Below, piece after piece: positions 32,534 through 35,665 of a DNA stretch of 64,000 nucleotides. Below the pieces are notes generated by a model that was given only the letters and a program-made list of their open reading frames with translations, did not search any database and had not been told where the DNA came from. This stretch comes from Escherichia phage REP4. How positions within the stretch are numbered: the first letter of the stretch is position 1; the number at the start of each line of letters is the position of its first letter. Made by a program: the position numbers and the translations under genes. The stretch lies in the sequence record OQ174503.1. One strand, written 5' to 3'.

Positions 32534-32609
32534 TGGTCGAGGCAGTAGGGATCGAACCTACGACCTAGGACTTAGAAGGTCCTTGCTCTTCCTTCTGAGC
32601 TATGCCCCG
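32534..32609 (-). tRNA. tRNA-Arg (anticodon UCU)
   Basis: Hand-folded cloverleaf: acceptor CGGGGCA/UGCCUCG, anticodon loop CUUCUAA, T-loop UUCGAUC, CCA encoded. Confidence 0.85.
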
Positions 32610-32613
32610 TAAT

Positions 32614-32689
32614 TGGGGTGACCGATGGGAGTCGAACCCATGACTACGAGAATCACAATCTCGAGTTCTACCAACTGAACTACGGCCAC
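32614..32689 (-). tRNA. tRNA-His (anticodon GUG)
   Basis: Acceptor GUGGCCG/CGGUCAC, discriminator C73, anticodon loop UUGUGAU, CCA encoded; base at -1 is U, not G. Confidence 0.75.
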
Positions 32690-32802
32690 ATTAATACCTA
32701 CTCCAACAATCAAGATGTCTTCACACGAAATTAAGAGAAGAGTGATCAGTTCAACCCTATAATCGCGTCAAGTAGATATTAATGTGACAGTTGTCACAAA
32801 TT

Positions 32803-32877
32803 TGGCGGACGTGATAGGATTCGAACCTATAACCAATCGCTTAACAGGCGATCGCTCTGCCATTGAGCTACACATCC
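32803..32877 (-). tRNA. tRNA-Asn (anticodon GUU)
   Basis: Acceptor GGAUGUG/CACGUCC, anticodon loop CUGUUAA, T-loop UUCGAAU, CCA encoded. Confidence 0.75.
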
Positions 32878-32881
32878 AAAT

Positions 32882-32968
32882 TGGTGGGGAGTGATGGAGT
32901 CGAACCACCCGAGTCGCAATGACAATGGATTTACAGTCCACACCGCTACCTCTACGGGATAACTCCCC
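32882..32968 (-). tRNA. tRNA-Tyr (anticodon GUA), long variable arm
   Basis: Acceptor GGGGAGU/ACUCCCC, anticodon loop CUGUAAA, 87 nt with long variable arm. Confidence 0.7.
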
Positions 32969-32981
32969 TTAATTCTTAATT

Positions 32982-33056
32982 TGGTGGCCCTGGGTGGAAT
33001 TGAACCACCATCTGGCGATTATGAGTCGCTTGCTTGAACCTTCCAGCTACAGGGCC
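32982..33056 (-). tRNA. tRNA with anticodon CAU (Ile2-type by T4 synteny, or Met)
   Basis: Acceptor GGCCCUG/CAGGGCC, anticodon loop CUCAUAA, T-loop UUCAAUU; sits where T4 has tRNA-Ile. Confidence 0.7.
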
Positions 33057-33057
33057 T

Positions 33058-33133
33058 TGGTGCTGATTGACGGAATCGAACCGCCGACCTTCTCATTACA
33101 AGTGAGTTGCTCTACCTACTGAGCTAAATCAGC
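33058..33133 (-). tRNA. tRNA-Thr (anticodon UGU)
   Basis: Acceptor GCUGAUU/AAUCAGC, anticodon loop CUUGUAA. Confidence 0.85.
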
Positions 33134-33138
33134 AAAAC

Positions 33139-33228
33139 TGGCGGAGGCGATAGGATTTGAACCTATGAGTCGCCGGAGCGACTGCCGGTTTTCAAGACCG
33201 GTGCATTAAACCACTCTGCCACGCCTCC
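33139..33228 (-). tRNA. tRNA-Ser (anticodon UGA), long variable arm
   Basis: Acceptor GGAGGCG/CGCCUCC, anticodon loop CUUGAAA, 90 nt. Confidence 0.85.
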
Positions 33229-33230
33229 AG

Positions 33231-33304
33231 TCTCCATACAAGGATTTGAACCTTGGACCTCCTGATCCCAAATCAGGCGCTCTACCAAACTGAGCTACAC
33301 GGAG
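33231..33304 (-). tRNA. tRNA-Pro (anticodon UGG), CCA not encoded
   Basis: Acceptor CUCCGUG/UAUGGAG, anticodon loop UUUGGGA; only 2 nt from tRNA-Ser (dimeric precursor). Confidence 0.8.
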
Positions 33305-33314
33305 TAAATTAAAT

Positions 33315-33388
<74 letters not shown>

Positions 33389-33393
33389 AAATT

Positions 33394-33480
33394 TGGTGCG
33401 AGAAGTGGGACTCGAACCCACAAGGAAATCATTCCGCAGCATTTTAAGTGCTGTGCCTTTACCAATTTGACCATTCTCGC
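33394..33480 (-). tRNA. tRNA-Leu (anticodon UAA), long variable arm
   Basis: Acceptor GCGAGAA/UUCUCGC, anticodon loop CUUAAAA, 87 nt. Confidence 0.85.
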
Positions 33481-33481
33481 G

Positions 33482-33554
33482 CTGGGAATAAAGGACTCGA
33501 ACCTTTGCATCCTGGAATCAAAATCCAGTGCCTTACCAACTTGGCTAATTCCCA
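33482..33554 (-). tRNA. tRNA-Gln (anticodon UUG), CCA not encoded
   Basis: Acceptor UGGGAAU/AUUCCCA, anticodon loop UUUUGAU; 1 nt from tRNA-Leu (dimeric precursor). Confidence 0.8.
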
Positions 33555-34608: not shown

Positions 34609-34896
34609 TTACAAAAGATTTTTAGCAATAATCTTGAGATGTGCCGCAGAAATGTGTTTAGCTTTAAACAACGCAGTTTCTTCAGCAGGAGAGATAATGA
34701 TTGTAGCACCATCCTTTTTAGCAGACCACCCATCACCTAGGTAAACAGTACCTTTGATTTCTTCGCCATCAACCAAACTAATCATTGGTTTACCTTCTCG
34801 TCCTTTATTTGCTTTAATAACTTCAGAAGTAAGAGTAGCTTCAGTAATAGTAGAAACCGGGGTAGTTGTAGAAGTAAATTCTTTGAAAGTTTTCAT
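34609..34896 (-). CDS. ipI: internal protein I (injected head protein)
   Basis: 95 aa beginning MKTFKEFTS..., body ATLTSEVIKANKGREGKPMISLVDGEEIKGTVYLGDGWSAKKDG matches T4 IPI as I recall. Confidence 0.8.
   Translation of the reverse strand: MKTFKEFTSTTTPVSTITEATLTSEVIKANKGREGKPMISLVDGEEIKGTVYLGDGWSAKKDGATIIISPAEETALFKAKHISAAHLKIIAKNLL

Positions 34897-34968: not shown

Positions 34969-35665
<697 letters not shown>

What the first reader, a model, noticed from the sequence alone, without database searches (positions are those of the whole stretch)
32614..32690. The tRNA-His gene does not encode the G-1 residue
The candidate has a bacterial-type tRNA-His acceptor stem (GUGGCCG/CGGUCAC), discriminator C73 and anticodon loop AUUGUGAUU. 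However the genomic base immediately 5' of position 1 is U (plus-strand A at 32690), not the G that bacteria encode to pair with C73 and that histidyl-tRNA synthetase uses as its main identity element. The tRNA may be poorly charged, may depend on unusual 5' processing, or may have a non-canonical role.
Basis: partly seen in the sequence, partly recalled or inferred. Interest (0 to 1): 0.45.

Follow-up and report, generated by a model that had tools for sequence, protein, structure and literature searches.

The report
Phage tRNA-His lacking G-1, structured leader
This T4-like phage carries a working histidine tRNA gene that has U instead of the near-universal extra G before its first base, and that U lies inside a conserved RNA helix, also present in phage T5, which probably controls how the tRNA's 5' end is cut.

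Summary
The minus-strand tRNA-His(GUG) at 32689..32614 has C73 and an encoded CCA, but U at -1 (32690). The host E. coli gene encodes G-1 in 5426 of 5426 genomes.

It is not an error or a decaying gene. Every Straboviridae relative examined has U-1, and their tRNA bodies show compensatory changes in 12 of 21 stem pairs. Phage T5 and relatives, a FelixO1-like phage and a mycobacteriophage also have U-1 with C73. In an IMG/VR sample, -1 was G in 104 genes, T in 15, and never A or C.

New here: the leader (-14..-1) plus G1-C5 pairs with an upstream segment (32788..32770) in a 19-bp helix. Across T4-like and T5-like phages, 95.7% of cells are paired, 12 of 19 pairs are compensatory, and there are 41 G·U cells and no A·C. 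The A:U(-1) pair never varies. No other tRNA in the cluster has such a helix.

In the T5 records the tRNA-His starts at U-1, and the ends of stable RNAIII form a duplex with a 2-nt 3' overhang, the RNase III signature.

Best reading: helix-directed, non-canonical 5' maturation, possibly leaving pU-1 as a partial substitute for G-1. The mature 5' end and charging are untested.

The parts
32614..32689 (-). tRNA-His(GUG) gene, 76 nt. Acceptor stem GUGGCCG/CGGUCAC with a G4·U69 wobble, C73, encoded CCA.
   Evidence: ARAGORN; Rfam tRNA model, 65.1 bits. In 15 Straboviridae variants 98.4% of cloverleaf cells are paired and 12 of 21 pairs show compensatory change.
32690..32690 (-). Position -1, which is U (plus-strand A) instead of the G that the host gene encodes. 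It pairs with A32783 in the precursor helix.
   Evidence: Sequence. T at -1 in all T4-like and T5-like relatives. The A:U(-1) pair is invariant in 17 of 17 sequences.
32685..32703 (-). 3' arm of the precursor helix: leader -14..-1 (GAGUAGGUAUUAAU) plus G1-C5 of the tRNA.
   Evidence: RNAfold minimum-free-energy structure; ungapped pairing search, 20 of 22; covariation.
32770..32788 (-). 5' arm of the precursor helix (GUCACAUUAAUAUCUACUU). It pairs base for base with 32703..32685: 19 of 19 pairs, 3 of them G·U.
   Evidence: 41 G·U cells against 0 A·C cells show RNA-level pairing on the tRNA sense strand.
32704..32769 (-). Spacer enclosed by the helix, about 66 nt, conserved among Tequatro-, Karam- and Jiaodavirus. 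Candidate excised small RNA, by analogy with T5 RNAIII.
   Evidence: Alignment. No Rfam family. No similarity to T4 rnaC/rnaD or T5 RNAI/RNAIII. The analogy to T5 RNAIII rests and is an inference.
32783..32798 (-). Local palindrome UGUGACA-AC-UGUCACA. Its 5' half mimics U-1..C5 of tRNA-His and can compete for the first bases of the 5' arm. Seen only in Tequatrovirus.
   Evidence: Read directly. Not seen in Karam- or Jiaodavirus loci. Function not tested.
32803..32877 (-). Upstream tRNA-Asn. In most other genera the GCCA 3' end of the upstream tRNA is itself the start of the 5' arm.
32534..32609 (-). Downstream tRNA-Arg(UCU), 4 nt after the CCA of tRNA-His, so the two form a His-Arg dimeric unit.

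Best explanation
This is a genuine, selection-maintained tRNA-His of a T4-like phage (Tequatrovirus). Its gene carries U, not G, at -1 as a fixed family trait. It keeps every other E. coli HisRS determinant: C73, G1:C72 and the GUG anticodon loop.

Shown here: in the polycistronic precursor, the 14-nt leader and the first five tRNA bases pair with an upstream segment. This forms a 19-bp helix with an invariant A:U(-1) pair. An alternative conformer of nearly equal predicted energy has the cloverleaf folded and a 14-bp leader helix stacked directly on G1:C72.

Inferred: this helix blocks or redirects ordinary RNase P access, and 5' maturation starts with a double-strand-specific cut, most likely by host RNase III. 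By analogy with T5, the cut would fall between -2 and -1. That would release a spacer RNA and a tRNA-His bearing pU-1. The pU-1 would supply the 5' phosphate at position -1 that HisRS needs and partly replace G-1. Some molecules may be trimmed further to pG+1 by RNase P.

The tRNA would then be histidylated by host HisRS, less efficiently than host tRNA-His, and would read CAU and CAC for the phage.
For: - Functional tRNA: 98.4% of cells paired, 12 of 21 pairs compensatory, 0 of 500 shuffles as good.
- Family trait: T at -1 in Tequatro-, Karam-, Jiaoda-, Gelderland-, Kanagawa-, Moon-, Gualtar- and Angelvirus loci.
- Helix: 19 of 19 pairs in the window. Over 17 T4-like and T5-like sequences, 95.7% of cells are paired against 41-47% when the partner is slid. 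12 of 19 pairs are compensatory, with 0 of 500 shuffles as good.
- RNA-level pairing: 41 G·U cells and 0 A·C cells.
- Specificity: only tRNA-His among the 11 window tRNAs has the helix, scoring 20 of 22 against 13-17. Host hisR scores 16 of 22, which is noise.
- Same design in unrelated Demerecviridae: T5 20 of 22, S114 20 of 22 with a completely different distal sequence, and a Proteus phage hairpin.
- T5 records annotate a 78-nt tRNA-His starting at U-1, RNAIII spanning -107..-2, and RNAI ending in CCA at -112. Position -107 pairs with -4, which gives 2-nt 3' overhangs on both cut ends.
- RNase III needs only about 6 nt beyond the cut and dislikes G:C next to the scissile bond (PMC1540722). 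Here 6 bp (-1..+5) lie beyond the predicted cut, and the flanking pairs are A:U.
- RNase III takes part in T4 tRNA maturation (PMC4810235 citing McClain 1979).
- Sequestering a leader blocks RNase P (PMC7897497, abstract listed).
- The extra nucleotide positions the 5' phosphate for E. coli HisRS (PMC3064791). U-1 tRNA-His supports yeast growth, with only a 5- to 6-fold loss (PMC6471195).
- The T5 U-1 tRNA-His converted to CUA is annotated as an effective amber suppressor, so it is matured and charged in E. coli.
Against: - No 5'-end or charging data exist for this phage.
- The T5 coordinates are annotation. I could not trace their experimental basis.
- The helix length measured from -1 varies: 7-9 bp in Aeromonas phages, 12 bp in the Proteus and Kanagawa types. 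This fits a single RNase III ruler poorly.
- U at -1 is also what RNase P prefers just 5' of its cut. A and U pairs near the junction would melt easily, so RNase P could still cut at -1/+1.
- Other U-1 lineages (mycobacteriophage Issimir, several IMG/VR contigs) lack a long helix.
- The 5- to 6-fold tolerance for N-1 was measured with yeast HisRS, not the E. coli enzyme.
- The 5' arm in each sequence was chosen as the best-pairing segment. This inflates pairing somewhat, although the arm is positionally homologous across sequences.
Confidence: 0.45

Rival explanations
1. Canonical RNase P cleavage between U-1 and G+1 gives a tRNA-His with a plain 7-bp acceptor stem and no -1 nucleotide. It is a poor HisRS substrate, more than 100-fold down, but high phage tRNA expression makes up for this. 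The helix only separates or times the precursor pieces, for example the 3' release of the upstream tRNA, and has nothing to do with the -1 problem.
For: - Whenever -1 is not G it is T: 15 of 15 in the IMG/VR sample, plus T5, S114, the Proteus phage, Arno18 and Issimir. This matches the known RNase P preference for U just 5' of the cut.
- In G-1 genes the T sits at -2 instead.
- In U-1 genes -2 is not U-biased, so nothing favours a -2/-1 RNase P cut. U-2 and G-1 are the published positive determinants of that cut (PMC5499578).
- Some U-1 lineages have no helix.
- Yeast survives without G-1 if the tRNA and HisRS are overproduced (PMC3064791).
Against: - It does not explain why a 15-20 bp helix spanning exactly the -1/+1 junction, with an invariant A:U(-1) pair, occurs at tRNA-His and at no other tRNA in two unrelated phage families.
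- The T5 records place the tRNA 5' end at U-1 and the RNAIII 3' end at -2.
- C73 is a negative determinant for canonical cleavage (PMC5499578).
- A more than 100-fold charging defect is hard to square with long-term conservation.
Confidence: 0.35
2. The RNA is not used for translation. It acts as a decoy or sponge for a host tRNA-targeting nuclease or toxin, or as a regulatory RNA, so loss of the HisRS identity element does not matter.
For: The extra tRNAs relative to T4 include Tyr, Asn and His, the GUN-anticodon group that colicin E5-type nucleases cut (own knowledge). PARIS AriB gives minor cleavage products of tRNA-His. Phage tRNAs are known to counter tRNA-cleaving defences (papers listed).
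Against: C73, encoded CCA, G1:C72, the anticodon loop and every stem are conserved, as expected for a chargeable, ribosome-competent tRNA. A replacement tRNA must be charged to rescue translation. The T5 counterpart works as an amber suppressor.
Confidence: 0.06
3. G-1 is added after transcription by a Thg1-like 3'-5' nucleotidyltransferase of phage or host origin, templated by C73.
For: Archaeal and bacterial Thg1-like proteins can add G opposite C73 (abstracts listed). C73 is strictly retained.
Against: E. coli and T4-type phages are not known to encode a Thg1-like protein (own knowledge). The seven ORFs flanking the cluster show no such Pfam domain. The rest of the genome was not scanned.
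Confidence: 0.03
4. It is a decaying pseudogene or a sequencing artefact.
For: The G50 copy has an A28·C42 mismatch. The Moonvirus copy has a damaged T-loop, a G7·A66 mismatch and no tRNA annotation.
Against: 187 records are at least 99% identical across the region. Compensatory substitutions across eight genera keep 98.4% of cells paired. U-1 is invariant.
Confidence: 0.02

Closest known systems
Phage T5 tRNA-His with the adjacent stable RNAs RNAI and RNAIII (Demerecviridae)
   Same: U at -1, C73, encoded CCA, and a bacterial-type acceptor stem (identical to E. coli's in T5). A roughly 20-bp helix joins an upstream segment that starts at a GCCA 3' end to the leader plus G1-C5, with an A:U(-1) pair. 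The helix encloses a 35-78 nt spacer.
   Different: Unrelated phage family. The tRNA body is only about 60% identical, and the spacer shows no detectable similarity. In T5 the spacer product is an annotated stable RNA; in T4-like phages nothing is annotated there. T5 has a 9-nt D-loop.
Canonical bacterial tRNA-His (E. coli hisR): encoded G-1 paired with C73, retained by an RNase P cut at -2/-1
   Same: GUG anticodon loop, C73, G1:C72, first acceptor pairs GUGGC, 8-nt D-loop, encoded CCA.
   Different: The host has G at -1, U at -2 and no leader helix (16 of 22, noise). The phage has U at -1, A at -2 and a 19-bp helix.
Alphaproteobacterial tRNA-His without G-1 (Caulobacter type) and its co-evolved HisRS
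   Same: No G at -1 in the gene.
   Different: That class has A73, G1:U72 and an extra U20a in a 9-nt D-loop, and depends on a divergent HisRS (PMC3064791). The phage tRNA has C73, G1:C72 and an 8-nt D-loop, and must use the ordinary E. coli HisRS.
(8/4) tRNA-His of alphaproteobacterial phages
   Same: A phage-encoded tRNA-His lacking G-1 (PMC5389517).
   Different: Those have an 8-bp acceptor stem with a 4-bp T stem and A73 or U73. This one is a standard 7/5 cloverleaf with C73.
Eukaryotic and archaeal tRNA-His completed by Thg1
   Same: G-1 is not encoded, so the -1 nucleotide must come from a separate step.
   Different: No guanylyltransferase is known or seen next to the cluster. The nucleotide available here is an encoded U.
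RNase III processing stalks (rRNA operons, T7 early RNAs, T4 tRNA precursor)
   Same: A long-range double helix of about 20 bp flanks an excised RNA. A:U pairs sit at the presumed scissile bonds. The T5 product ends carry 2-nt 3' overhangs. RNase III has been reported to act in T4 tRNA synthesis.
   Different: Here one arm includes the first five bases of a tRNA, and the presumed cut would define the tRNA's own 5' end. That has not been described for RNase III as far as my searches show.

Membership tests
Bacterial G-1:C73 type tRNA-His | GUG anticodon in a standard 7/5 cloverleaf | tested here: met
Bacterial G-1:C73 type tRNA-His | Discriminator C73 | tested here: met
   Invariant in 15 of 15 relatives.
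Bacterial G-1:C73 type tRNA-His | Genome-encoded G at -1 able to pair with C73 | tested here: not met
   U at -1. T in all Straboviridae relatives. The host has G in 5426 of 5426 genomes.
Bacterial G-1:C73 type tRNA-His | U at -2, the positive determinant of the RNase P -2/-1 cut (PMC5499578) | tested here: not met
   A at -2 in the window. In relatives -2 is A, C, T or G. G-1 genes have T at -2.
Alphaproteobacterial tRNA-His without G-1 | No G at -1 | tested here: met
Alphaproteobacterial tRNA-His without G-1 | A73, G1:U72, and U20a in a 9-nt D-loop (PMC3064791) | tested here: not met
   C73, G1:C72 and the 8-nt D-loop AGUUGGUA.
T5-type U-1 tRNA-His module | U at -1 with C73 and encoded CCA | tested here: met
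T5-type U-1 tRNA-His module | A helix of at least 14 bp joining an upstream segment to the leader plus the tRNA 5' strand, with an A:U(-1) pair | tested here: met
T5-type U-1 tRNA-His module | Mature tRNA begins at U-1 and the spacer accumulates as a stable RNA | not testable with these tools
   Only the T5 annotation is available. There are no RNA data for this phage.
E. coli RNase III processing site | Roughly two turns of double helix, at least about 6 bp beyond the cut, and no G:C next to the scissile bond (PMC1540722) | tested here: met
   19 bp. For a cut at -2/-1 there are 6 bp (-1..+5) on one side and 13 bp on the other, and the flanking pairs are A:U and U:A. The cut position itself is assumed from T5.
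E. coli RNase III processing site | Canonical proximal-box and distal-box sequence content | tested here: inconclusive
   I read only the text of PMC1540722. The box positions could not be mapped reliably without the figures.
E. coli RNase III processing site | Staggered cut with 2-nt 3' overhangs, dependent on rnc | not testable with these tools
   The annotated T5 ends fit this geometry. No data exist for the window phage.

The most novel reading that the evidence does not exclude
A third route to the special 5' end of tRNA-His. In T4-like and T5-like coliphages, a conserved precursor helix would make a double-strand-specific nuclease (RNase III), rather than RNase P, cut between -2 and -1. 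This would leave an encoded pU-1 that stands in for G-1 with the host HisRS. The tRNA would then mature independently of the unusual RNase P reaction and of Thg1, and the cut would also release a small stable spacer RNA.
Probability: 0.3. Interest if true: 0.8.

Novelty: new variant of a known kind. Interest (0 to 1): 0.6.

Why it matters
G-1 is treated as an almost universal identity mark of tRNA-His. The known exceptions come with a co-evolved HisRS or a dedicated G-adding enzyme.

Here hundreds of sequenced coliphages, from two unrelated families, carry a conserved tRNA-His that lacks G-1 but keeps C73. They infect hosts whose HisRS loses more than 100-fold activity without G-1.

The linked helix gives a concrete and cheap-to-test handle: which nuclease makes the 5' end, whether U-1 stays, and how well the tRNA is charged.

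The answer bears on several questions:
- how phage tRNAs actually function;
- whether RNase III can define a tRNA terminus;
- how tRNA-His genes in phage genomes should be annotated and interpreted;
- whether such tRNAs could serve as partly insulated tRNA-His variants.

Tried and rejected
- **Alternative register placing a G at -1.** Rejected. U8 and A9, the D-arm, the Rfam alignment and colinearity with E. coli tRNA-His fix G1 at 32689.
- **My first automatic re-registration script.** It was faulty, because the G-1:C73 pair also gives 7 pairs when shifted. I discarded it and redid the count with a U8 anchor.
- **A promoter in the Asn-His spacer that would start transcription at or near +1.** No sigma-70-like site on the minus strand there, and no terminator in the cluster. 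By eye, hexamer spacings would put a start inside the tRNA.
- **Known RNA family in the spacer.** None at E <= 1.
- **Homology of the spacer to T4 rnaC/rnaD or T5 RNAI/RNAIII.** None.
- **The inverted repeat as a DNA-level element (cruciform or protein site).** Disfavoured: 41 G·U cells against 0 A·C cells, which points to the sense-strand RNA.
- **Small leader hairpin proposed by RNAalifold on -45..+10.** Weak, -2.5 kcal/mol with no compensatory pairs. It was superseded by the long-range helix.
- **Mini-ORF reading (GGAG ... AUG UGG CCG UAG).** Considered and dropped. The would-be start varies among AUG, CUG, UUG and GUG, and GGAG is not conserved.
- **RegB GGAG site.** Not conserved.
- **tRNA-editing enzyme next to the cluster.** The seven flanking ORFs gave only IPI, Acb1 and a weak DUF. 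The whole genome was not scanned for Thg1-like proteins.
- **Literature.** Nine full-text searches found no description of a phage tRNA-His with U-1 and C73, or of the helix. Giegé 1998, Himeno 1989, Wang 2007 and Rosen 2006 are not held.

Full report
**What the window is.** The 2-kb stretch around the finding is 99.7% identical to Escherichia phage vB_EcoM_G50 (Tequatrovirus, Straboviridae), and more than 270 T4-like records cover it. The minus strand carries a tRNA cluster: Gln-Leu-Gly-Pro-Ser-Thr-Met(CAU)-Tyr-Asn, then a 113-nt spacer, then His-Arg. Up to Thr the order matches T4. T4 itself continues with Ile, segB, Arg, rnaD and rnaC, and has no tRNA-His.

On the minus strand the sequence reads ...GGAGUAGGUAUUAAU|GUGGCCGUAGUUCAGUUGGUAGAACUCGAGAUUGUGAUUCUCGUAGUCAUGGGUUCGACUCCCAUCGGUCAC-C-CCA-AUUA. 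ARAGORN and the Rfam tRNA model (65.1 bits) both put G1 at 32689. Position -1 (32690) is U, -2 is A, the discriminator is C73, and CCA is encoded. From +1 onward the tRNA is colinear with E. coli tRNA-His. The E. coli sequence including G-1 matched at 100% in all 5426 complete E. coli genomes, with T at -2 and G at -1. No alternative register supplies a G at -1.

**It is a conserved, functional gene, not an accident.**
- The 141-nt stretch that includes -1 is at least 99% identical in 187 phage records.
- I fetched relatives from eight Straboviridae genera: Tequatro-, Karam-, Jiaoda-, Gelderland-, Kanagawa-, Moon-, Gualtar- and Angelvirus. All have T at -1.
- Across 15 distinct tRNA bodies, 98.4% of cloverleaf cells are standard pairs, against 33-50% when the partner is slid.
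- 12 of 21 pairs show changes on both sides, concentrated in the anticodon and T stems.
- C73, CCA, G1-C5 and the anticodon loop do not vary.
- Occasional copies look damaged: G50 has an A28·C42 mismatch, and the Moonvirus copy has a damaged T-loop. These are exceptions.

**How common this is among phages.** A pattern scan of IMG/VR returned 119 tRNA-His genes.

| Set | G at -1 | T at -1 | A or C at -1 |
|---|---|---|---|
| All 119 genes | 104 | 15 | 0 |
| Genes inside tRNA clusters | 40 | 12 | 0 |

The T-1 genes belong to several lineages besides the T4-like phages. U-1 with C73 also occurs in:
- phage T5;
- two other Demerecviridae genera;
- a FelixO1-like Pectobacterium phage;
- mycobacteriophage Issimir, one of about 160 similar records.

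In G-1 genes the base at -2 is almost always T. In U-1 genes -2 is A, C, G or T without bias. So a U sits just 5' of the expected RNase P cut in both classes. Nothing in the U-1 genes favours the special -2/-1 RNase P cut, whose published determinants are U-2, G-1 and C73 (PMC5499578).

**The leader is one arm of a conserved helix.** The 14 nt upstream of the tRNA are conserved across genera (consensus GAGUGAAUAUUGAU), while sequence further upstream is not. Folding the precursor showed why. Leader -14..-1 plus G1-C5 (32703..32685) pairs with 32788..32770 (GUCACAUUAAUAUCUACUU). This gives 19 of 19 pairs, three of them G·U, enclosing about 66 nt.

- An ungapped search gave 18-20 of 22 pairs in T4-like loci, against a background of 16-17 or less.
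- Among the 11 tRNAs of the window only His has such a helix: 20 of 22 against 13-17.
- Host hisR has none: 16 of 22.
- Most G-1 phage genes have none.
- In most genera the 5' arm begins with the GCCA 3' end of the preceding tRNA.
- Aeromonas T4-like phages have a shorter version, pairing +6 to -9.

**The same design in T5-like phages.** Phage T5 is unrelated to T4.
- T5: GCCACAAUUGAAAAUUCGUA pairs with GCGAGUUUUCAAUU|GUGGC, 20 of 22, enclosing 78 nt.
- Salmonella phage S114 keeps the helix with an entirely different distal half and a 35-nt loop.
- A Proteus phage has a contiguous hairpin covering +3 to -12.

**Covariation across both families.** I aligned 17 T4-like and T5-like arm pairs and counted pairs.
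- 95.7% of cells are paired, against 41-47% in slid controls.
- 12 of 19 pairs have compensatory changes.
- 0 of 500 shuffles reach any of the measures.
- The A:U(-1) pair is invariant.
- There are 41 G·U cells and no A·C cells, so the pairing acts in the RNA strand that contains the tRNA, not in DNA.

One caveat applies. Each 5' arm was picked as the best-pairing segment, which inflates the pairing figure somewhat. The arms are, however, positionally homologous.

**Two conformers.** Nearest-neighbour energies put two structures within 0.4-4 kcal/mol of each other.
1. The long helix forms, with the tRNA's 5' acceptor strand sequestered.
2. The cloverleaf folds, and a 14-bp leader helix stacks directly on G1:C72, with C73-CCA protruding at the junction.

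In both, U-1 is base-paired and the leader is not single-stranded. Designed leader sequestration is known to block RNase P (PMC7897497, abstract listed).

**What the T5 records add.** Three independent T5-group records annotate the following:
- a 78-nt tRNA-His that starts at U-1;
- stable RNAIII from -107 to -2;
- RNAI ending in ...GCCGCCA at -112.

Reading the sequence, -107 pairs with -4, so RNAIII has a paired stem with a 2-nt 3' overhang. The complementary cut ends (upstream fragment ending at -108, tRNA starting at -1) also leave a 2-nt 3' overhang. This is the geometry of an RNase III double cut, which is established knowledge. RNAI's CCA end would follow by trimming four bases.

Further points fit the same reading:
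- RNase III tolerates as little as about 6 nt beyond the cut and is inhibited by G:C next to the scissile bond (PMC1540722). Here 6 bp (-1..+5) lie beyond a -2/-1 cut, and the flanking pairs are A:U.
- RNase III has been reported to act in T4 tRNA synthesis (PMC4810235 citing McClain 1979).
- The T5 tRNA-His with a CUA anticodon is annotated as an effective amber suppressor, so this type of tRNA is matured and aminoacylated in E. coli.

**Consequences for charging.**
- Without G-1, E. coli HisRS loses more than 100-fold in efficiency. The extra nucleotide acts mainly by positioning the 5' phosphate in an arginine cluster (PMC3064791).
- Yeast HisRS accepts other N-1 bases with only a 5- to 6-fold loss, and a U-1 tRNA-His supports yeast growth (PMC6471195).
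- A retained pU-1 together with C73 would therefore be a much better substrate than a tRNA starting at pG+1. I recall from Rosen et al. 2006 that the 5' phosphate and the C73 amine are the main E. coli determinants, but I could not retrieve that paper.

**Best explanation and what remains open.**
- Shown: the gene is functional, U-1 is a fixed trait, and U-1 lies in a covarying helix specific to tRNA-His and shared by two phage families.
- Inferred: the helix governs 5' maturation, probably through RNase III; the cut falls between -2 and -1; pU-1 is wholly or partly retained and partly replaces G-1.

The main rival is ordinary RNase P cleavage at -1/+1. That would give a poorly charged tRNA with a 7-bp acceptor stem, with the helix serving only to separate precursor pieces. 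Three things favour the rival: the general U preference of RNase P, the variable helix length, and U-1 lineages that lack a helix. The decoy, Thg1-like addition and pseudogene readings are unlikely.

**Comparison with known systems.**
- It is not a member of the canonical G-1:C73 class, because G-1 and U-2 are not met.
- It is not a member of the alphaproteobacterial class without G-1, because A73, G1:U72 and U20a are not met (PMC3064791).
- It is not one of the 8/4 phage tRNA-His (PMC5389517).
- It matches the T5 tRNA-His module in every feature I could test.

**Novelty.** U-1 in T5 is visible in public annotation. Nine literature searches found no description of the trait in T4-like phages, of its recurrence, or of the junction-spanning helix. 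I rate it a new variant of a known kind.

Noticed in passing
window 32534-33554 (minus strand): Compared with T4 (Gln-Leu-Gly-Pro-Ser-Thr-Ile-segB-Arg-rnaD-rnaC), this phage has Met(CAU), Tyr, Asn and His and lacks segB, rnaC and rnaD. Tyr, Asn and His (plus Asp in Karam- and Jiaodavirus) are the GUN-anticodon tRNAs that colicin E5-type anticodon nucleases target (own knowledge).
   Followed up: no
window 32783-32798 (minus strand): Perfect palindrome UGUGACA-AC-UGUCACA just after tRNA-Asn. Its first half mimics U-1..C5 of tRNA-His and could compete with the tRNA for the 5' arm of the helix, giving a three-way alternative pairing. Seen only in Tequatrovirus.
   Followed up: partly
window 32704-32769; predicted excised RNA about 32691-32780 (minus strand): The spacer enclosed by the helix is conserved among Tequatro-, Karam- and Jiaodavirus. 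It could yield a stable RNA of about 90 nt, analogous to T5 RNAIII, which is annotated 'stable RNA with unknown functions'. No Rfam hit, and no similarity to T4 rnaC/rnaD or T5 RNAI/RNAIII.
   Followed up: partly
L129 and L135 (Aeromonas T4-like phages), leader -14..-9: The motif GAGUGA/GAGUAA is conserved with the enterobacterial T4-like leaders. Here it lies in the hairpin loop rather than in the helix, so pairing does not explain its conservation.
   Followed up: no
L001 (G50) 2115-2190; L128/L141 (Citrobacter phage Moon): G50's tRNA-His has a G28-to-A change that makes an A·C mismatch. The Moon copy has UUAGAAU in the T-loop, a G7·A66 mismatch and G37, and is annotated as a hypothetical protein. 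These are signs of occasional relaxation or loss of the gene.
   Followed up: partly
L153 (Pectobacterium phage Arno18, Ounavirinae), just upstream of its tRNA-His: Another U-1 tRNA-His. The GCCAAA 3' end of the upstream tRNA-Gln can pair with UUUGGU(-1), a 6-bp hairpin that again places U-1 in a helix together with the neighbour's CCA end.
   Followed up: no
L131 (Mycobacterium phage Issimir) 1501-1575: A cluster-C mycobacteriophage tRNA-His shares the acceptor stem GUGGCCG/CGGUCAC with the T4-like phages. Its U-1 is the single spacer nucleotide after tRNA-Glu. It has no helix and no encoded CCA.
   Followed up: no
window 32982-33056 (minus strand): ARAGORN calls this tRNA Met (anticodon CAT), and it sits where T4 has its tRNA-Ile. 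It is 47 of 75 identical to T4 tRNA-Ile and shares the first 12 bases. It may be a lysidine-dependent tRNA-Ile2 rather than an elongator Met.
   Followed up: partly
window 33481-33554 and 33230-33304 (minus strand): tRNA-Gln and tRNA-Pro lack an encoded CCA, whereas the other nine tRNAs encode it. Gln abuts Leu with no spacer.
   Followed up: no
window 34609-34896 and 34969-35424 (minus strand): Upstream of the cluster lie homologues of T4 IPI, a nuclease inhibitor (PF11634, E = 2e-53), and the anti-CBASS protein Acb1 (PF23474, E = 2.6e-60).
   Followed up: no
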